The notes under the pieces are model-generated. The model saw nothing but the letters and a program-made list of their open reading frames with translations, did not search any database and was not told where the DNA came from. Below, piece by piece: positions 2,961 to 44,000 of a stretch of 51,960 bases of DNA. Origin of the DNA: a phage. The position numbers and the translations under genes are program-made. The stretch is from the sequence record PZ000615.1; one strand, given 5' to 3'. Within the stretch, counting starts at the first letter, position 1. Every line of letters begins with the position of its first letter.

Positions 2961-3695
2961 ATGAAAGACGTTGCAGACAAAGATACTCACGACGCTTTTG
3001 TCTCATTTGAGCAGATTGAGCGCGAAAACTTCATTACCAACGCGCTTGTTCCTGGGTGCGGTCATTATTCAGCAGTCAAGCCGGATACTTACTACCAGGT
3101 AACTGGCAACCGCTACGCCGGAAGCAAGACACCTGACATCGTTCGTGACCTTTGGGCTACAGATCCAGAAGTGATTGAGTTCATGGAGAAGCGTTTCGGC
3201 AAGTATGATCTTGACGCGGCGGCAAGCGAACAAAACGCGGTCTGTGAAAAGTTCTACGACGAAAAGACCGACTGCCTGAAACGCTGGTGGGGCAAGAACA
3301 AACACGTTTGGCTTAACCCTCCGTACTCACATCCGGACGTCTTTGTCAAAAAGGCAATTGAGCAGATGGAGCATGGAAACCAGATTGACATGCTGCTGCC
3401 TGGTGACAACTCAACCGCATGGTTTGCCGAAGCGCGTCGGAATGCTGCTGAGATTATCTGGATCGAGGGAGATATTGAAACCGACATCGACGGAACTGAG
3501 TACGCCCGAACCGGACGACTTTCTTTCATCTCGGCTCTCACCGGAAAGCCAGTTGACGGAAACAACAAAGGCTCTGTGATCTTTATCATGCGAGAGCTGA
3601 AAGAAGGTGAGAAACAGAAAACTCACTACATCCCAATTACTGAAATTTGCCCAGGCGTGAGCCGCAAGCGTGCTAAAAAACGGAGCGTAAAATAA
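2961..3695 (+). CDS. dam: DNA N6-adenine methyltransferase (phage Dam type)
   Basis: Track ORF 2955..3695 starts at TTG; ATG at 2961 preceded by CAGGAG; catalytic motif WLNPPYSH (NPPY). Confidence 0.8.
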   Translation: MKDVADKDTHDAFVSFEQIERENFITNALVPGCGHYSAVKPDTYYQVTGNRYAGSKTPDIVRDLWATDPEVIEFMEKRFGKYDLDAAASEQNAVCEKFYDEKTDCLKRWWGKNKHVWLNPPYSHPDVFVKKAIEQMEHGNQIDMLLPGDNSTAWFAEARRNAAEIIWIEGDIETDIDGTEYARTGRLSFISALTGKPVDGNNKGSVIFIMRELKEGEKQKTHYIPITEICPGVSRKRAKKRSVK

Positions 3696-5691: not shown

Positions 5692-6207
5692 ATGATTTTT
5701 GAGCCTCACTATGAAGCGCCTCGCGTCGTTATTTTTGACTATGACGGAACGCTATCCGATGGAACTCACCGTTTGCACCTGCTGCCAACGAAAGACCAAC
5801 ACTTAACTGAAACATGGATTCCGTTTAATGCGGCCTGTGTTTATGATTCTCCAATCCGTGACACAATTGACGTGATGAATGCAATGTATGACGCAGGATT
5901 TTACGTCATCATTCTGACTGGTCGAAGTGATCACGTTTACGATGAGTCAGTAAAATGGCTGAAAGATAACGGCGCTCGTTACCATCATATGGAGATGCGA
6001 AAGCAGACCGACAATCGCAGAGACACAATCATCAAAGAGGAATACTTGCGCGGCATCGGCCTTGAAAACATCGTTGCAGCCTGGGACGACAGCCCGAACG
6101 TTATTGAGCATTTCCGCAACCTTGGGATTACCGTTTACCAGGTTTTCGATTACGGCGACAAGCTTCACAGTCGCACAGACTTAAAATCTCACGGAGTAGA
6201 AAAATAA
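5692..6207 (+). CDS. HAD-superfamily phosphatase (nucleotidase / polynucleotide 3'-phosphatase-like)
   Basis: N-terminal VVIFDYDGTLSDG (DxDGT motif); AAGGA SD. Confidence 0.6.
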   Translation: MIFEPHYEAPRVVIFDYDGTLSDGTHRLHLLPTKDQHLTETWIPFNAACVYDSPIRDTIDVMNAMYDAGFYVIILTGRSDHVYDESVKWLKDNGARYHHMEMRKQTDNRRDTIIKEEYLRGIGLENIVAAWDDSPNVIEHFRNLGITVYQVFDYGDKLHSRTDLKSHGVEK

Positions 6208-6788
6208 TGATTATCATTTTGAACGCACCAGCCGGAGCCGGAAAAGACACCATTCAGCAAGCAATTGCGGAGCTGCATGAGGTGTCACAGCTCAGCTTTA
6301 AAAAGCCTATGTTCGCTATGGCTAATGCCATGCTTGGCGATCTGGGGTTCATGGAATTCATGGACGCCTACAACAACCGCGAGCGAAAAGAAAAGCCACT
6401 TGAATTGCTTCACGGCTCAAGCCCTCGGCAGTTCATGATCTGGCTGAGTGAGAGCGTTATTAAACCTCACTTTGGCGACAAGCATTTTGGTAATCTGCTT
6501 TATGACGATTACATTATGCACGAGAATGACGGCTACTATGTCGGAGTTGTCAGCGACGGCGGGTTTGAGAGTGAGACGATTGCTCTGATCGATACTGGAG
6601 TTCCGGTTCGTCTTGTTCGACTTCATCGTGACGGCTACTCGTTTGCCGGAGACTCACGCGATTATGTCAGTCTGCCGCTCTACGCTAATAGCCCTACGTA
6701 TGACTACCAAGAGTTTGACGTTCAGTTAACTGAAGGTTTGCCAGTTGTGGCGGCGCTGGATATTCTCTCAATGGTCGGGTTGAAATAG
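6207..6788 (+). CDS. P-loop kinase, deoxynucleoside monophosphate kinase-like
   Basis: N-terminal IIILNAPAGAGKDT (GxxxxGKD/T P-loop as in phage dNMP kinases); TAATG coupling to upstream gene. Confidence 0.55.
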   Translation: MIIILNAPAGAGKDTIQQAIAELHEVSQLSFKKPMFAMANAMLGDLGFMEFMDAYNNRERKEKPLELLHGSSPRQFMIWLSESVIKPHFGDKHFGNLLYDDYIMHENDGYYVGVVSDGGFESETIALIDTGVPVRLVRLHRDGYSFAGDSRDYVSLPLYANSPTYDYQEFDVQLTEGLPVVAALDILSMVGLK

Positions 6789-6867: not shown

Positions 6868-6972
6868 ATGAAAAACGCAATCAACTACATCTTATCTACT
6901 GCTGGCGGCGTCCTGGTTGTTGGCTTTATGATTTGGGTTGTAACCTTAGCATCTAACTTTAACGGGTTCTAA
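6868..6972 (+). CDS. Small membrane peptide (34 aa)
   Basis: GGAGAAACACC-ATG; translation MKNAINYILSTAGGVLVVGFMIWVVTLASNFNGF with one hydrophobic helix; below track cutoff. Confidence 0.35.
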   Translation: MKNAINYILSTAGGVLVVGFMIWVVTLASNFNGF

Positions 6973-6973
6973 A

Positions 6974-7174
6974 ATGTCAAAATCAATCGCTGTAAAATGC
7001 ATTCGCAACGATTCTAAAACACTGCCTTTCGCTGTTAATGGCGTATATAACGCGGAGGATATCGGCGGTCAGTATAAGATCAGCTATATGACAGGCGCTT
7101 ATACTTCTGACTTTATTCACGCGCCGTTAAATGGTCACTATCTGGAATTTATTCCGGTGGACATTCAGAAGTAA
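6974..7174 (+). CDS. Hypothetical protein
   Basis: Track ORF, followed by hairpin terminator. Confidence 0.45.
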   Translation: MSKSIAVKCIRNDSKTLPFAVNGVYNAEDIGGQYKISYMTGAYTSDFIHAPLNGHYLEFIPVDIQK

Positions 7175-7193: not shown

Positions 7194-7217
7194 GGGAGCC
7201 TTTAGGCTCCCTTTTTG
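7194..7217 (+). terminator. Rho-independent terminator
   Basis: GGGAGCC-TTTA-GGCTCCC followed by TTTTT. Confidence 0.6.
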
Positions 7218-7286
7218 CGTTGTTTCATTCCTTCCTCCATTCGGTTATTATTGAACCAACTTTCCCAACTAACCAAGGCTAACGCT

Positions 7287-7502
7287 ATGAGAGACTTTAT
7301 TAACTCTATCGCTGGCACTGGCGGCGGCGTTACCCTTGGCGGCGCGGCGGCTGGTCAGCTTATCATTGCCGGAATAGGCTTAATCATCATGACAGCTTTC
7401 GGAGCCTGGGGTGCATATCTGCGCTGGAAGGACTCAAAAGCACTACACAAGGCACTAGCCAACGGCGACATCAAAGAGGCCGTCAGGATCAGGAGTCAGT
7501 GA
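7287..7502 (+). CDS. Putative holin/pinholin (71 aa)
   Basis: ATG at 7287 inside track ORF 7215..7502; Gly/Ala-rich hydrophobic segment [33 protein letters not shown] then charged C-tail; immediately upstream of endolysin. Confidence 0.5.
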
Positions 7503-7503
7503 T

Positions 7504-7986
7504 ATGAGCAACGTTTTAAAATCCACTCTGACGGGCGTTATGCTCGTCACTGCTGGTCTACTATCTCAGCTTGAGGGTACGCATTACACGCCTTACATCG
7601 ACATCGCTGGCGTCCCAACCGTCTGTGAAGGGATTACTGGTAAGGATGTAATCTGGGGCAAGAAGTACACGCGGCGCGAGTGCGATAAGCTGTTAGAGAA
7701 GCATATCGCTGTTGCTGCTAAGGCAGTTGACGGAGCCGTTAAGGCTGAAATCCCCGACACCATGAGAGCGGCTCTGTATAGCTTCACATTCAACGCTGGT
7801 CAAGGGGCTTTCCGTTCGTCCACCCTGTTACGTTTAACGAACCAGGGGCGCTTATGGGAGGCTTGCGGCGAGCTGAATAAGTGGGTTTACTTCTACAACC
7901 CAAAAACCGGAAAGAAAGAGGTTGCGAAAGGCCTGAAAAACCGACGCGCCGTTGAATATCAATATTGCGTTAAGGATCTGAAATGA
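7504..7986 (+). CDS. SAR-type endolysin (lysozyme, GH24-like)
   Basis: N-terminal weakly hydrophobic signal-anchor-release segment [15 protein letters not shown] followed by lysozyme motif [16 protein letters not shown]; AGGAG SD. Confidence 0.7.
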
Positions 7987-8390
7987 AAAAGACAATCATC
8001 GCTTGTTGCGTATCTCTGGCTTTAATCGTATCTGGTTGCTCGGCTACGTCTGCTCTGACTGGTCTAATCGGCAGCAAGCCGGATGTCACAGCACAGGCCG
8101 GAGCCGAAAACACAAAACAGACTCTCGGACTGAACAGCAAGGTTGACCAATCCAGCAAGTCGGACAACACGATTAAGGATTCAGCCGTCGGCTCTGTTGA
8201 TAGCTCCAACGGCAAACGAGTTAACGCCTCAAGCATCACGGCGGATATGATCAAGGCAGACAAGATTGAGATCAGGAATAATGAGGCTTACGTGTGGGAA
8301 ATGGAGGCAGGGATGTTTGTCGTTGGCCTAATGGCGGGCGCTCTCGCAGTTACCATCTACGCGACACGCAGAAAGAACAAAGGAGCCTAA
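7983..8390 (+). CDS. Unimolecular spanin (lipoprotein signal + C-terminal TMD)
   Basis: N-terminal lipobox LIVSGC, C-terminal [24 protein letters not shown] overlap with endolysin; followed by terminator. Confidence 0.65.
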
Positions 8391-8404
8391 CGGCTCCTTT
8401 TTTT
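8382..8404 (+). terminator. Rho-independent terminator after spanin gene
   Basis: GGAGCC-TAAC-GGCTCC followed by TTTTTTT. Confidence 0.6.
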
Positions 8405-8565
8405 ATTCGTACAACTTGACGTGAAGGATACAAACCCCATCCTCATCATTAAGACCATGCTCAAAGTGACCGCTAGCCCTCATGCTGGTCGTCAACATTG
8501 ACAGCAGGGCGCAATTCAAACCCTCCCCGCTTATCCGGTTCACAGCCACACACTCAACGATTGAG

Positions 8566-8952
8566 TCAATTACTGTTTGAGCTTCCACGTATGGATCTGG
8601 CTCTTTCAATTTCGTGCCTCCTGAATAGATATTCGTCATCAAGCTTTCCGATGTTCATCATCTCTTTCATGTAAAGGCTCTCGCTTGCTTCCAGTGAATG
8701 CAGCTCAAAGTCAAACGGCCTGCTCTCTTTGTTCTTTACCCAAGCCTTTCCGCCCGACATATCCAGGTAGCCAAGCGTGCAAAGGCGCGGAATGAACTCA
8801 CGACCGACACAGGCGGCGAACTGCTTAGGAGTAACTCCGGCGCTCCTGGCTAATCGCTCACACTCGCGATGACCGAACACAAATGTTGATAACTCCTGGC
8901 GGGTAAATTCCCGCCGTGACTCTGCGAACCGATACAGATCAAGAATGAACAT
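8566..8952 (-). CDS. Hypothetical protein
   Basis: Track ORF; adjacent to stop of 526-aa gene; overlapped at 3' end by alternative-frame ORF 8403..8642. Confidence 0.4.
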   Translation of the reverse strand: MFILDLYRFAESRREFTRQELSTFVFGHRECERLARSAGVTPKQFAACVGREFIPRLCTLGYLDMSGGKAWVKNKESRPFDFELHSLEASESLYMKEMMNIGKLDDEYLFRRHEIERARSIRGSSNSN

Positions 8953-41026: not shown

Positions 41027-44000
41027 ATGGCTAAAATCATTTCCGCCCGTAAGGGTGGCGGCAGTAAGCCGCATCAACCTCGCGAGATGGACGACAACCT
41101 AATCTCACGCGACAAAATCAAAATATTGCTAGCGCTCTCTGATGGTGAAGTGGATGAGGGATTCACCCTGAAAGATCTGCTTTTCGATGACGTTCCGGTT
41201 GTTGCAGCCGATGGGACAGAGAACTATCAGAATGTTAGAGCTGAGTTCCGCTACGGTACGCAAGAACAATCTTACATTCCAGGGTTCACCGAGTCGAACA
41301 ACGAAATCACCGTTCAGCGTGACGTATCGACTGAAACGCCATACGTAATCAGCGTTACTAACCAAGTATTGAGCGCTATCCGAATTCGAATGATGACGGA
41401 TCGAATTGCTCACACCAAGGATAACGGCGACACCGTAGGCGCAAAAGTTGAGTATAGATTCGACATGGCTATCAACGGCGGCGCGTATGAGGAAGTGACG
41501 CGAACTGTGTTTGACGGTAAGAATACAAGCGGGTATGACCGTTCGATCAGGATCAACTTGCCGGAGAGTTACCAGCAGGTATTGATTCGAGTTGTGCGAC
41601 TTACTCCGGACGACTCAAGCGACAGGACTCAAAGCAAGTTCAGGGTTCAGAGCTACAGCGAAGTGATTGACGCTAAGTTTCGCTATCCTCTGACGGCTTT
41701 ACTGTTCGTTGAGTTTGATTCTGACCTGTTCCCGAACCAGTTGCCGACAATCTCAGTCAAGAAGAAATGGAAAAAGATTCAGGTTCCAGTGAACTACGAT
41801 CCGGTTTCCCGAACTTACTCCGGCACTTGGAACGGCATGTTCAAAACCGCATGGTCTAACAACCCTGCATGGGTTCTGTATGACCTGATCATGAATCAGC
41901 GTTACGGGCTTGATCAGAAGGAACTCGGAATTGACGTGGATAAGTGGAGCCTCTACGAGGTTGCTCAATACTGCGATCAGATGGTTCCAGATGGTCACGG
42001 TGGACAGGAGCCGCGCTACCTTTGCGATATGGTTGTTCAATCTCAGGTTGAGGCTTACCGACTGATTCGTGACGTTTGCTCTATTTTCCGTGGGATGTCG
42101 TTCTACAACGGTGAGAGCTTGTCAATCGTAATCGACAAGCCGCGAGATCCGGTTTACCTGTTCACGAATGACAACGTTGTCGACGGCGCGTTTGCCAGGG
42201 TGTTCGCTTCAGAGAAAAGCATGTACACGAGCGTTAACGTGATGTTTGATGACCGAGAGAACATGTTTAACCAGGACGTCGAGCCAGTGTTTGATAATGA
42301 GGCATCTCGCCGTTTTGGTAACAACCCGACAGACATCACGGCAATCGGATGCACGCGACGCAGTGAGGCTAACCGCCGAGGTCGCTGGATTATCAAAACG
42401 AACCTCCGGAGCACGACGGTAAACTTTGCGACTGGGCTTGAGGGCATGATTCCGATGATTGGCGATGTTATCGCAGTTTCCGATAACCATTGGCAACACA
42501 ACATCATGTATAACCTTTCCGGTCGACTGATGGAGGTTTCAGGAGTGCAGGTGTTCACGTCGTTCCGTGTCGATGCAAGGCCAGGTGATTTCATTATCGT
42601 TAACAGACCTGACGGCAAGCCACAGAAGAGAACAATCTCCCGCGTATCGTCAGACGGAAAAACGATAACGCTGAACGTAGGTTTCGGGTTTGCTGTTCAG
42701 CCTGACGCTGTTTTCGCGATTGAGCGCTCCGATCTGACGTTTGAACAATACGTTGTTACCAAGATCGAGAAGGGAGACGGCGACGAGGAATTTGTTCACC
42801 GCATCACGGCGATTGAATACGATCCGACCAAATATGACGCCATTGACTACGGTGTCGTGATTGACCAGCGACCAACAAGCATTGTTGATCCTGATCACCT
42901 GAAAGCGCCTGAAGGAATCAAGATTTCCTCTTTCTCTCGCGTAGTTCAGGGGATGAGCATTGAAACGATGGTTGTGAACTGGAATAAGGTTCAGTATGCA
43001 AACCGATACGAAATGCAGTGGCGCAAGGATAATGGCAACTGGAACAACACTCCACAAACAGCAGCAACCGAGATTGACGTTGAGGGGATTTACGCTGGTG
43101 TTTATGAGGTTCGAGTTCGCGCAGTGTCGGCAGCGGGTAACGTGTCGCCATGGTCAGAGATTGAGGTTAAATCCCTGACTGGTAAAACTGGCAAGCCGAA
43201 CAAGCCGATTAACCTCACAGCTACAGACGGTGAAGTTTTCGGTATTCGTGTCAAGTGGGGTATGCCTGAAGGATCTGGTGATACTGCTTACGTAGAGTTA
43301 CAGCAAGCTCCTGACGACAACGCCGGAGGTTATTTACCTGAGGCGGCGACTCTGGTTAGCATGGTTCCTTACCCTCAGCATGAATACTGGCACAGCGTAC
43401 TACCGAGCGGCTTCATCAACTGGTATCGCGTTCGCTCAGTGGACAAGATCGGAAACGTGTCGGACTGGACTGATTTCGTTCGCGGAATGGCTACGGATGA
43501 CGTAGACAAAATTGGCGAGGTTGTCAAGATTGAGTTTGAAGAGACGGAAGGTTTCAAGGAATTGAAAAAAACCGTTGAGGAGTTGGTTGGTCAGCTTGAC
43601 GAGCAAAGCGAAGAACTCAAAGAGACAGGCGATACCATGAAGGACTACGGAGCCAAACTCAGAGCACAGGCTGAGGCTGATATTGAGAACGCGCTAGCGA
43701 ACAACACGGATGTGATCCGGATGACCAAGGAGAACGGAAAGCGTAAGGCTGAGTTCAGATTTGCGGTTAACCTGGTTGCTACGGAGAGTGAGGCGAGAGC
43801 GGAGGCTATCACCAAGCTATCAGCACAGTTTGACGAGGATATCGGGGCGGCGGTCACTCGCATGGATCAGGCAATCGCGAAAGAAGGTGAGGCGCGAGCG
43901 AAAGCAATCGCAGATCTGAAAGCGCAGATTGACGATGAGGTAGTGGCTCAGATTACAACCGTTCAGGAGGCGCTGGCGAAGGAAACGGAAACTCGCGTCA

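What the first reader, a model, noticed from the sequence alone, without database searches (positions are those of the whole stretch)
7287..8390. Lysis cassette with SAR endolysin and a unimolecular spanin
There are three consecutive coupled genes. The first is a 71-aa holin-like protein. The second is a lysozyme with an N-terminal signal-anchor-release-like segment. The third is a 135-aa protein with both a lipoprotein signal (LIVSGC) and a C-terminal transmembrane helix, instead of a two-component Rz/Rz1 pair. This is the phage T1-type u-spanin arrangement and supports T1-like affiliation.
Basis: partly seen in the sequence, partly recalled or inferred. Interest (0 to 1): 0.4.

Follow-up and report, generated by a model that had tools for sequence, protein, structure and literature searches.

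The report
T1-type phage lysis cassette
These three genes are the standard cell-bursting module of a T1-like phage (membrane-hole protein, cell-wall enzyme, single-protein outer-membrane disruptor), and they closely match genes already annotated in related phages, so the finding is correct but ordinary.

Summary
Three tightly packed + strand genes lie at 7287-7502 (71 aa), 7504-7986 (160 aa) and 7983-8390 (135 aa). They are homologues of phage T1 gp13 holin (48% identity), gp12 endolysin (61%) and gp11 (38%, E 2e-25). T1 gp11 is the experimentally defined prototype unimolecular spanin.

The 135-aa protein has a lipoprotein signal (VSGC, Cys19, Ser at +2), no periplasmic cysteine, and a C-terminal membrane helix followed by RRKNK. 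No Rz1-like embedded ORF exists. It is the only lipoprotein-signal ORF my screen found in the window.

The endolysin is a T4-lysozyme-type muramidase with an E24/D33/T39 triad. Its closest solved structure is R21, the class II SAR endolysin. Its N-terminal segment is SAR-like but only borderline hydrophobic, so SAR behaviour and a pinholin role for the holin are inferred, not shown.

Terminators bracket the cassette. The window is collinear with Enterobacter phage Ec_L1 (Drexlerviridae, Eclunavirus), where the same genes are already annotated.

One nuance: T1gp11-family spanins also occur in Autographiviridae, so the spanin alone does not prove T1-like affiliation.

Verdict: already known, low interest.

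The parts
7194..7219 (+). Intrinsic terminator (GGGAGCC-TTTA-GGCTCCC followed by T5) ending the upstream transcription unit. It marks the 5' boundary of the lysis cassette.
   Evidence: Found by the terminator scan. It folds at -15.9 kcal/mol, z -3.4. An equivalent hairpin plus T-run lies upstream of the holin in 8 of 8 Drexlerviridae loci examined, including T1.
7220..7286 (+). Leader and putative promoter region of the cassette. It contains a conserved -10-like TATTAT (about 7247-7252) and the holin Shine-Dalgarno AAGG (7275-7278).
   Evidence: The TATTAT / TAAAAT-like hexamer aligns across the window, Phc, Ec_L1, NBD2 and T1. No sigma-70 consensus site passed the scan threshold here, so the promoter is inferred only.
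7287..7502 (+). Holin, 71 aa, T1 gp13 family. It has a Gly/Ala-rich weakly hydrophobic N-terminal segment (about 8-23), one strong membrane helix (about 24-44) and a charged C-terminal tail. It is a probable pinholin.
   Evidence: phrog_2877 holin, E 1.5e-33, full length. 48% identity to T1 gp13. Hydropathy. A 71-aa start is seen in T1 and in 9 of 10 cluster members. Published annotation of the T1 and TLS homologues as class II pinholins is itself predictive.
7504..7986 (+). Endolysin, 160 aa. It is a GH24 / T4-lysozyme-type muramidase with an E24-x8-D33-x5-T39 triad and an N-terminal SAR-like segment (K6, then [17 protein letters not shown], no Cys).
   Evidence: Pfam PF00959, E 3.8e-34. 61% identity to T1 gp12. 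Best solved structures are R21 (3HDE/3HDF, E 5e-37) and RrrD (4ZPU). Triad residues are invariant in the alignment. N-terminal hydropathy and composition.
7983..8390 (+). Unimolecular spanin, 135 aa, T1 gp11 family. Signal peptide [18 protein letters not shown], lipidated Cys19, Ser20 at +2, a Cys-free periplasmic segment of about 88 residues, a C-terminal TMD at about 107-128, and the cytoplasmic tail RRKNKGA.
   Evidence: phrog_1804 Rz-like spanin, E 6.1e-47. T1 gp11 match at E 2e-25 over the full length. G18, C19 and S20 and the PDVTAQxGAENxKQ motif are conserved in 11 homologues. The same architecture is present in all 11. The AF2 single-sequence run models helices only at the two ends.
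8379..8407 (.). Bidirectional intrinsic terminator (AAAGGAGCC-TAAC-GGCTCCTTT followed by T7). It overlaps the spanin stop codon and lies between convergent genes.
   Evidence: The scan finds it on both strands. It folds at -17.3 / -17.6 kcal/mol, z -5.6 / -5.2. T1 has an annotated terminator at the equivalent position, 43966-43988.

Best explanation
This is the lysis cassette of a T1-like siphophage (Drexlerviridae, Eclunavirus-like). It forms its own terminator-bracketed transcription unit encoding holin, endolysin and unimolecular spanin.

Proposed mechanism, with shown and inferred steps marked:

(a) The 160-aa muramidase is exported by the host Sec system through its weakly hydrophobic N-terminal segment. 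It stays tethered to the inner membrane with catalytic Glu24 held at the membrane surface, and so is inactive. This is inferred from its similarity to R21 and from its N-terminal composition.

(b) The 71-aa holin accumulates in the inner membrane. At a programmed time it triggers and collapses the proton-motive force. Small holes would suffice because the enzyme is already outside. This is inferred; the protein is homologous to T1 gp13, not to the S21 pinholin.

(c) Depolarisation releases the N-terminal segment. It refolds as the first helix of the lysozyme fold, and the enzyme degrades the murein. This is inferred.

(d) The 135-aa spanin is lipidated at Cys19 and sorted to the outer membrane (Ser at +2). 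Its C-terminal helix stays in the inner membrane, so one polypeptide of about 88 periplasmic residues threads the murein mesh. This topology is shown at sequence level.

(e) Once the murein is gone, the spanin is free to move and collapse. It fuses the inner and outer membranes and releases the virions. This is inferred from the published T1 gp11 work: gp11 complements the lambda RzRz1 lysis defect and needs its lipobox Cys.
For: Homology to T1: all three experimentally anchored or annotated T1 lysis genes are matched in the same order. PHROG lysis families match at E 1e-33 to 1e-48.

Endolysin: closest to the R21 SAR endolysin structures, with an invariant E/D/T triad. The N-terminal segment has a basic residue followed by about 17 moderately hydrophobic, G/A/S/T-rich, Cys-free residues in all 8 Drexlerviridae homologues.

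Spanin: the lipobox Cys, +2 Ser/Ala, C-terminal TMD plus basic tail, and Cys-free periplasmic segment of 80-102 residues are present in 11 of 11 family members. There is no other lipoprotein-signal ORF in the region or the window.

Transcription unit: terminators flank the cassette, and the upstream one is conserved in 8 of 8 relatives.

Annotation and literature: the nearest genome, Ec_L1, annotates the same genes as holin, endolysin and Rz-like spanin. T1 gp11 complements RzRz1, and members of its family sit in pinholin / SAR-endolysin cassettes (PMC6139136). The T1 module is described as pinholin + SAR endolysin + u-spanin (PMC13164509; PMC11447400). Lysis by a Drexlerviridae homologue, 57_3Lys, is azide-sensitive, i.e. 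Sec-dependent (preprint).
Against: The SAR-like segment is only borderline hydrophobic: best 17-residue mean Kyte-Doolittle 1.63 versus 2.29 for R21/RrrD. It carries a single basic residue (K6) and lacks the linker R21 has between the anchor and the catalytic Glu.

I could not run SignalP, TMHMM or LipoP.

The holin has no detectable similarity to the S21-type pinholin EssD (E 1.5). Its putative first helix is very Gly-rich. The T1 GenBank record calls gp13 a single-TMD holin, while the TLS paper predicts two TMDs.

The beta-rich periplasmic fold reported for the gp11 family could not be confirmed. The single-sequence AF2 model had pLDDT 55 and no structure in the periplasmic part.

No experiment exists for these particular proteins.
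Confidence: 0.88

Rival explanations
1. The cassette is holin-endolysin-spanin, but the endolysin is not SAR-type. Its N-terminal segment would simply be the buried first helix of a cytoplasmic lysozyme, and the holin would be a canonical large-hole holin that lets it out.
For: Borderline hydrophobicity (1.63). Only one basic residue. The hydrophobic stretch abuts the catalytic Glu directly, so part of it must be the alpha-1 helix equivalent. The T1 record describes a single-TMD holin.
Against: The segment is 8-13 residues longer than the N-terminus of the soluble homologues P22 gp19 and T4 lysozyme (alignment offsets). It has no acidic residue. Its character is conserved while its sequence drifts. 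The closest structural relative is a proven SAR enzyme. A related Drexlerviridae enzyme shows Sec-dependent lysis.
Confidence: 0.1
2. The endolysin N-terminus is a conventional cleavable Sec signal peptide. The enzyme would then be secreted as a soluble periplasmic protein rather than anchored and released.
For: It has an n-region / h-region layout. Small residues occur after the hydrophobic core (T16-A17-G18, S21) that could fit a -3/-1 rule (sequence). A preprint reports that SignalP calls a signal peptide in a homologue.
Against: Cleavage near residues 18-21 would leave only 3-6 residues before catalytic Glu24 and remove the alpha-1 helix equivalent of the T4-lysozyme fold (inference). Constitutively active periplasmic muramidase would lyse cells prematurely. 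There is no AxA motif.
Confidence: 0.05
3. The 135-aa protein is an outer-membrane lipoprotein with another role, for example receptor-blocking superinfection exclusion like Cor or Llp, and not a spanin.
For: It is a small phage lipoprotein. No Pfam family covers it.
Against: It is a full-length homologue of T1 gp11, which complements RzRz1. It has a C-terminal inner-membrane anchor that Cor/Llp-type lipoproteins would not need. It is translationally coupled to the endolysin as the last cassette gene. No other spanin candidate exists in the window.
Confidence: 0.02

Closest known systems
Phage T1 lysis cassette (gp13 holin, gp12 endolysin, gp11 u-spanin; NC_005833 42878-43982)
   Same: Same three genes in the same order, with tight coupling. 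A terminator sits before and after. The same flanking genes are present: a DUF7244 gene upstream, and a convergent small gene plus helicase downstream. Identities are 48% / 61% / 38%.
   Different: Sequence divergence is moderate, and the spanin C-terminal TMD is not conserved in sequence. In the window, polynucleotide kinase, dNMP kinase and a 34-aa membrane ORF lie upstream where T1 has an HNH endonuclease.
Enterobacter phages Ec_L1 (NC_042122, Eclunavirus) and Phc (MZ669808) lysis genes
   Same: Nearest relatives: 86-87% nucleotide identity over the cassette, and proteins 90-97% identical. They are already annotated as holin, endolysin and Rz-like spanin in Ec_L1.
   Different: These are allelic differences only. 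The Ec_L1 holin is annotated 12 codons longer from a TTG, which looks like a mis-called start. Phc leaves the spanin as 'hypothetical protein'.
Phage 21 R21 / DLP12 RrrD class II SAR endolysin (PDB 3HDE, 3HDF, 4ZPU) with the S21 pinholin
   Same: The catalytic domain is about 44% identical overall, with the same E-x8-D-x5-T triad. The N-terminal anchor is Cys-free and G/A/S/T-rich.
   Different: The anchor here is shorter and less hydrophobic, and it abuts the catalytic Glu with no TGPSGND-type linker (Glu24 versus Glu35). The partner holin is unrelated in sequence to S21/EssD. The spanin partner is unimolecular, not RzpD/RzoD-type.
Lambda Rz/Rz1 two-component spanin
   Same: Same job (outer-membrane disruption as the last lysis step) and the same position as the last gene(s) of the cassette.
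   Different: One polypeptide carries both anchors. There is no N-terminal TMD, no embedded lipoprotein ORF and no periplasmic Cys.
T1gp11-family u-spanins of Autographiviridae (Klebsiella phage SU503 / KP34-like, Pectobacterium PP90, Pantoea ROV85)
   Same: Same protein family and architecture, at 31-43% identity.
   Different: Podophage genomes, with gene order spanin-holin-endolysin next to the terminase.

Membership tests
T1 gp11 unimolecular spanin family | N-terminal lipoprotein signal with a lipobox and an invariant Cys | tested here: met
   MKK + hydrophobic core + V-S-G-C19. G18 and C19 are invariant in 11 homologues. LipoP itself was not available.
T1 gp11 unimolecular spanin family | Outer-membrane sorting signal (residue +2 is not Asp) | tested here: met
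   Ser20. The +2 residue is S or A in 11 of 11 members.
T1 gp11 unimolecular spanin family | C-terminal transmembrane helix followed by a basic cytoplasmic tail | tested here: met
   Residues 109-125 have mean Kyte-Doolittle 2.15, and the tail is [10 protein letters not shown]. AF2 models helix 101-133, with its best pLDDT of 75-77 there. TMHMM was not available.
T1 gp11 unimolecular spanin family | Sequence homology to T1 gp11 (Kongari 2018 family criterion: 40% identity over 40% of length, clustered) | tested here: met
   The direct match is 38% identity, E 2e-25, full length, just under 40%. It links through damhaus (47% to the window, 40% to T1). phrog_1804 matches at E 6e-47.
T1 gp11 unimolecular spanin family | No cysteine in the periplasmic domain | tested here: met
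   Cys occurs only at positions 8, 9 and 19. There are 0 periplasmic Cys in 11 of 11 members.
T1 gp11 unimolecular spanin family | Periplasmic domain with a short helix followed by four or more beta-strands | tested here: inconclusive
   Single-sequence AF2 gave pLDDT 55 and no secondary structure for residues 30-100. No MSA-based model or JPred run was made.
T1 gp11 unimolecular spanin family | Encoded in a lysis cassette next to the endolysin, with no two-component spanin present | tested here: met
   ATGA overlap with the endolysin gene. No other lipoprotein-signal ORF in the region or the window.
T1 gp11 unimolecular spanin family | Complements the lambda RzRz1 lysis defect; function depends on the lipobox Cys | not testable with these tools
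   Shown for T1 gp11 only (PMC6139136).
Class II (R21-type) SAR endolysin | T4-lysozyme-type catalytic domain with an E-x8-D/C-x5-T triad | tested here: met
   PF00959 E 3.8e-34. E24, D33 and T39 are invariant. Best PDB hits are R21 3HDE/3HDF.
Class II (R21-type) SAR endolysin | N-terminal weakly hydrophobic, G/A/S/T-rich transmembrane segment preceded by positive charge | tested here: met
   K6 is followed by [21 protein letters not shown] content is 39%. The best 17-residue mean Kyte-Doolittle is 1.63, versus 2.29 for RrrD. The simple Hessa-scale sum (scale values recalled from memory) is +2.9 versus +0.15 kcal/mol. The feature is met, but at the low end.
Class II (R21-type) SAR endolysin | No Cys in the SAR segment (distinguishes it from the class I P1 Lyz type) | tested here: met
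   No Cys in residues 1-23.
Class II (R21-type) SAR endolysin | Sec-dependent export, no signal-peptidase cleavage, and release on membrane depolarisation | not testable with these tools
   The only support is indirect: azide-sensitive lysis by the Drexlerviridae homologue 57_3Lys in a preprint.
Pinholin (S21 type, class II holin) | Two TMDs, the first weakly hydrophobic and able to leave the membrane | tested here: inconclusive
   There is one strong TMD (25-41, Kyte-Doolittle 2.2) and a Gly/Ala-rich segment (11-27, Kyte-Doolittle 1.1, 65% G/A/S/T), with no polar loop between them other than Q24. The literature disagrees on one versus two TMDs.
Pinholin (S21 type, class II holin) | Sequence homology to S21 / EssD | tested here: not met
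   BLASTP E 1.5. It may work like a pinholin, but it is not a member of the S21 family. It belongs to the T1 gp13 family (phrog_2877).
Two-component spanin (Rz/Rz1) | An i-spanin with an N-terminal TMD, plus a separate, overlapped or embedded o-spanin lipoprotein ORF | tested here: not met
   A six-frame lipobox scan of 7200-8700 finds only the 7983 ORF itself. The alternative-frame ORFs inside it (8003-8146, 8143-8250) have no lipobox. A whole-window scan finds no other candidate.

The most novel reading that the evidence does not exclude
The T1-type endolysin may represent a compact variant of SAR regulation. In it, the membrane anchor and the first helix of the lysozyme fold would be the same residues: there is no linker, and catalytic Glu24 sits flush with the anchor. 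Membrane residence would then literally withhold part of the fold.

In addition, the neighbouring DUF7244 (SH3-like) gene and the 34-aa membrane ORF (6868-7174) might be auxiliary lysis factors, even though a terminator separates them from the cassette.

Neither idea is excluded by my data, and neither is tested.
Probability: 0.15. Interest if true: 0.4.

Novelty: already known. Interest (0 to 1): 0.07.

Why it matters
It matters little beyond correct annotation. It fixes the functions and start codons of three genes in this phage genome. It confirms the genome as Drexlerviridae-like. It also adds one more sequence to the T1 gp11 u-spanin family, whose fusion mechanism is still unresolved.

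The practical value is for annotation. The close relative Phc still lists its spanin as 'hypothetical protein'. Ec_L1 probably has a mis-called holin start.

Tried and rejected
- AF2 of the spanin without an alignment: pLDDT 55, so the periplasmic domain was uninformative. I did not use it for a fold search.
- I chose not to spend a 13-CPU-hour homologue search to build an MSA for a better model. Family membership was already settled by direct homology to T1 gp11.
- The J Virol 2018 paper on T1 gp11 localisation (PMC6206483) is not held. I relied on the BMC Bioinformatics paper and a review instead.
- The sigma-70 promoter scan found nothing between the upstream terminator and the holin start. 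Only a conserved -10-like hexamer is visible.
- The in-frame upstream TTG at 7251 (the Ec_L1-style 83-aa holin) and the TTG at 7215 (95 aa) were rejected as starts. Neither has a Shine-Dalgarno motif, the one at 7215 overlaps the terminator tail, and T1 plus 9 of 10 cluster members start at the 71-aa Met. There is no dual-start motif of the lambda or phage 21 kind: no second Met near the N-terminus.
- A 25-aa minus-strand ORF (8387-8464) with a 'TSSC' motif was rejected as an Rz1-like gene. Its mature peptide would be 8 residues, its lipobox is atypical, and it overlaps the terminator.
- NCBIfam gave no above-threshold family for any of the three proteins.

Full report
OBSERVATION

- 7287-7502, 71 aa: [71 protein letters not shown].
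- 7504-7986, 160 aa.
- 7983-8390, 135 aa.

The holin stop is one base from the endolysin ATG. The endolysin stop and the spanin start share ATGA. Each start has a Shine-Dalgarno-like purine run 6-8 nt upstream.

These are genes, not chance ORFs. PHROG profiles for holin (E 1.5e-33), endolysin (E 1.2e-48) and Rz-like spanin (E 6.1e-47) match essentially full length. Pfam Phage_lysozyme matches the second protein at E 3.8e-34.

WHAT THE WINDOW IS

The cassette is 86-87% identical in DNA to Enterobacter phages Ec_L1 and Phc. The first 25 kb of the window are collinear with Ec_L1 from base 1, at 85.7% identity and 84% coverage.

Ec_L1 is classified as Drexlerviridae, genus Eclunavirus. Its RefSeq record already annotates the equivalent genes as holin, endolysin and Rz-like spanin.

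The exact endolysin and spanin sequences are not in the 15-billion-protein collection. The exact holin occurs only in unnamed assembly contigs of about 52 kb. So this is an unnamed close relative of known phages, not a new kind of thing.

COMPARISON WITH T1

I fetched the T1 genome and compared directly:
- Holin versus gp13: 48% identity, E 6e-24.
- Endolysin versus gp12: 61% identity, E 4e-73.
- The 135-aa protein versus gp11: 38% identity over the whole length, E 2e-25.

Gene order and neighbourhood are the same in T1. A small DUF7244 gene lies upstream, then holin, endolysin and spanin, then a terminator, then a convergent small gene and a helicase.

T1 gp11 is the prototype unimolecular spanin. 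It complements the lambda RzRz1 lysis defect, and a lipobox Cys-to-Ser variant was included in that test. Its family was the largest of 13 u-spanin families and sits almost always in pinholin / SAR-endolysin cassettes (PMC6139136).

THE SPANIN

The N-terminus is MKK, a hydrophobic core, then V-S-G-C19 with Ser at +2, which is an outer-membrane sorting signal. The only cysteines are at positions 8, 9 and 19, so the mature periplasmic part has none.

Residues 109-125 form the most hydrophobic stretch (mean Kyte-Doolittle 2.15) and are followed by [10 protein letters not shown].

I aligned 11 family members: the window, Phc, Ec_L1, NBD2, DanielBernoulli, Klebsiella phage KL, damhaus, T1, SU503, PP90 and ROV85. 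G18, C19, S20 and the motif P-D-V-T-A-Q-x-G-A-E-N-x-K-Q are conserved. All 11 have the same architecture: a lipobox, S or A at +2, a Cys-free periplasmic segment of 80-102 residues, a C-terminal TMD and a basic tail.

A segment of about 88 residues, if extended, is long enough to cross the periplasm. This is my inference.

A six-frame search of 7200-8700 for lipobox-bearing ORFs found only this ORF. The two alternative-frame ORFs inside it have no lipobox. My heuristic found no other lipoprotein-signal ORF in the whole 51,960-base window.

The one family feature I could not confirm is the beta-rich periplasmic fold. A single-sequence AlphaFold run gave pLDDT 55 and modelled only the two terminal helices.

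THE ENDOLYSIN

It is a T4-lysozyme-type (GH24) muramidase with the E24-x8-D33-x5-T39 triad, invariant in nine aligned sequences.

The closest solved structures are the phage 21 SAR endolysin R21 (3HDE, 3HDF; E about 5e-37) and its prophage twin RrrD (4ZPU).

Before the catalytic Glu lie 23 residues: MSNVLK, then [17 protein letters not shown]. There is one basic residue, no acidic residue and no Cys, and 39% of the residues are G/A/S/T. The best 17-residue mean Kyte-Doolittle is 1.63.

The seven other Drexlerviridae homologues show the same pattern, with values of 1.55-1.93. RrrD reaches 2.29. T4 lysozyme has only 10 residues before its Glu, and no such segment (the T4 sequence was taken from memory).

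So a SAR-like segment is present and conserved in character, but it sits at the weak end. Unlike R21, there is no linker between it and the catalytic Glu.

I infer that the same residues serve as the membrane anchor and, after release, as the first helix of the fold. That arrangement would keep the tethered enzyme inactive.

The published annotation of T1 gp12 as a SAR endolysin is itself predictive. The only functional hint I found is azide-sensitive lysis by a related Drexlerviridae enzyme, in a 2026 preprint.

THE HOLIN

It belongs to the T1 gp13 family (phrog_2877). It has one strong TMD (about 24-44), preceded by a Gly/Ala-rich weakly hydrophobic stretch and followed by a charged tail.

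That layout resembles the phage 21 pinholin, whose first helix is also too weak to score in my window analysis. There is no sequence similarity to EssD/S21, however (E 1.5).

Sources disagree on one versus two TMDs. 'Pinholin' is thus a reasonable functional guess, not a family membership.

The 71-aa start is supported by T1 and by 9 of 10 members of its 90% cluster. Ec_L1's 83-aa annotation from an upstream TTG looks like a mis-call.

TRANSCRIPTION CONTEXT

A strong hairpin plus T-run lies at 7194-7219 (-15.9 kcal/mol, z -3.4). A bidirectional hairpin plus T-run at 8379-8407 overlaps the spanin stop (-17.3 kcal/mol, z -5.6). Together they bracket the cassette.

An equivalent terminator sits just upstream of the holin leader in all eight Drexlerviridae loci I looked at, T1 included.

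No consensus sigma-70 promoter passed the scan in the 67-nt leader. A -10-like TATTAT is conserved.

OUTSIDE THE REPORTED COORDINATES

The 66-aa ORF at 6974-7174 is a DUF7244 protein (E 3e-25) and a homologue of T1 gp14. A 2026 paper describes this SH3-like protein as a 'shell' component next to the lysis module in 188 of 522 Drexlerviridae. The paper notes that it rarely co-occurs with the polynucleotide kinase and dNMP kinase genes, which are both present here.

In this window, and in relatives, the terminator separates it from the holin. It is therefore at best loosely part of the module.

A 34-aa single-TMD ORF (6868-6972, AGGAG Shine-Dalgarno) is coupled to it and matches no family.

QUALIFICATION OF 'SUPPORTS T1-LIKE AFFILIATION'

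A tblastn search with the spanin finds 1,169 phage records. These include Autographiviridae podophages (Drulisvirus SU503, Phimunavirus PP90, Bonnellvirus ROV85), where the order is spanin-holin-endolysin beside the terminase.

The spanin alone is therefore not diagnostic. The full gene order, the synteny and the genome-wide collinearity are.

VERDICT

This is the well-described T1-type lysis cassette in a close relative of annotated Eclunavirus phages.

The SAR and pinholin mechanisms remain sequence-based inferences. Nothing here would surprise a phage-lysis specialist.

Interest is about 0.07. Novelty: already known.

Noticed in passing
window 6974-7174 (+): A 66-aa DUF7244 / SH3-like protein, homologue of T1 gp14 (Pfam E 3e-25). 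A 2026 paper proposes it as an accessory of the Drexlerviridae lysis module. Here an intrinsic terminator separates it from the holin gene.
   Followed up: partly
window 6868-6972 (+): A 34-aa single-transmembrane ORF (MKNAINYILSTAGGVLVVGFMIWVVTLASNFNGF) with an AGGAG Shine-Dalgarno. Its stop is one base from the DUF7244 start. It has no Pfam or PHROG match. It is conserved in Ec_L1 and Phc, where it is annotated as 51 aa from an earlier start.
   Followed up: partly
window 7194-7219; L002 (T1) about 42781-42812; L004-L007, L011, L001: A hairpin plus T-run terminator lies immediately upstream of the holin leader in 8 of 8 Drexlerviridae loci examined. It is not annotated in the T1 record. The lysis cassette therefore looks like its own transcription unit across the family.
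   Followed up: partly
L001 (Ec_L1) 3149-3400: The RefSeq holin of Ec_L1 is annotated as 83 aa from an upstream TTG. T1, Phc, the window and 9 of 10 cluster members are 71 aa. This is probably a mis-called start.
   Followed up: yes
window 7983-8390 and alignment A1: NCBIfam NF037952 'bacteriophage spanin2 family' gives weak, sub-threshold hits (best E 4.6e-7, about 24 bits against a cutoff of 80) to 8 of 11 T1gp11-family u-spanins. It does not hit T1 gp11 itself. I could not establish what that family contains.
   Followed up: partly
L008 (SU503), L009 (PP90), L010 (ROV85): T1gp11-family u-spanins also occur in Autographiviridae podophages, in the order spanin-holin-endolysin next to the terminase. 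The Pantoea phage ROV85 copy is annotated only as 'hypothetical protein'.
   Followed up: partly
window 5692-6788 (+): Polynucleotide kinase/phosphatase (5692-6207) and a dNMP kinase-like P-loop protein (6207-6788, phrog_139 E 3e-39) lie upstream. The KanT1 paper says these kinases co-occur with the DUF7244 gene in only seven Drexlerviridae genomes.
   Followed up: no
whole window: My lipoprotein-signal heuristic found only one such ORF in 51,960 bases: the spanin. No Cor-like superinfection-exclusion lipoprotein of the T1 type was picked up. I did not check whether one exists with an atypical signal.
   Followed up: no
window 8403-8952 (-): Two convergent small genes lie downstream: 8403-8642 (phrog_9539) and 8566-8952 (phrog_2794). 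Both are of unknown function, and as listed they overlap by 77 nt. The start of the downstream one (8403-8642) is therefore probably later than the TTG given; its PHROG match begins at residue 18.
   Followed up: no
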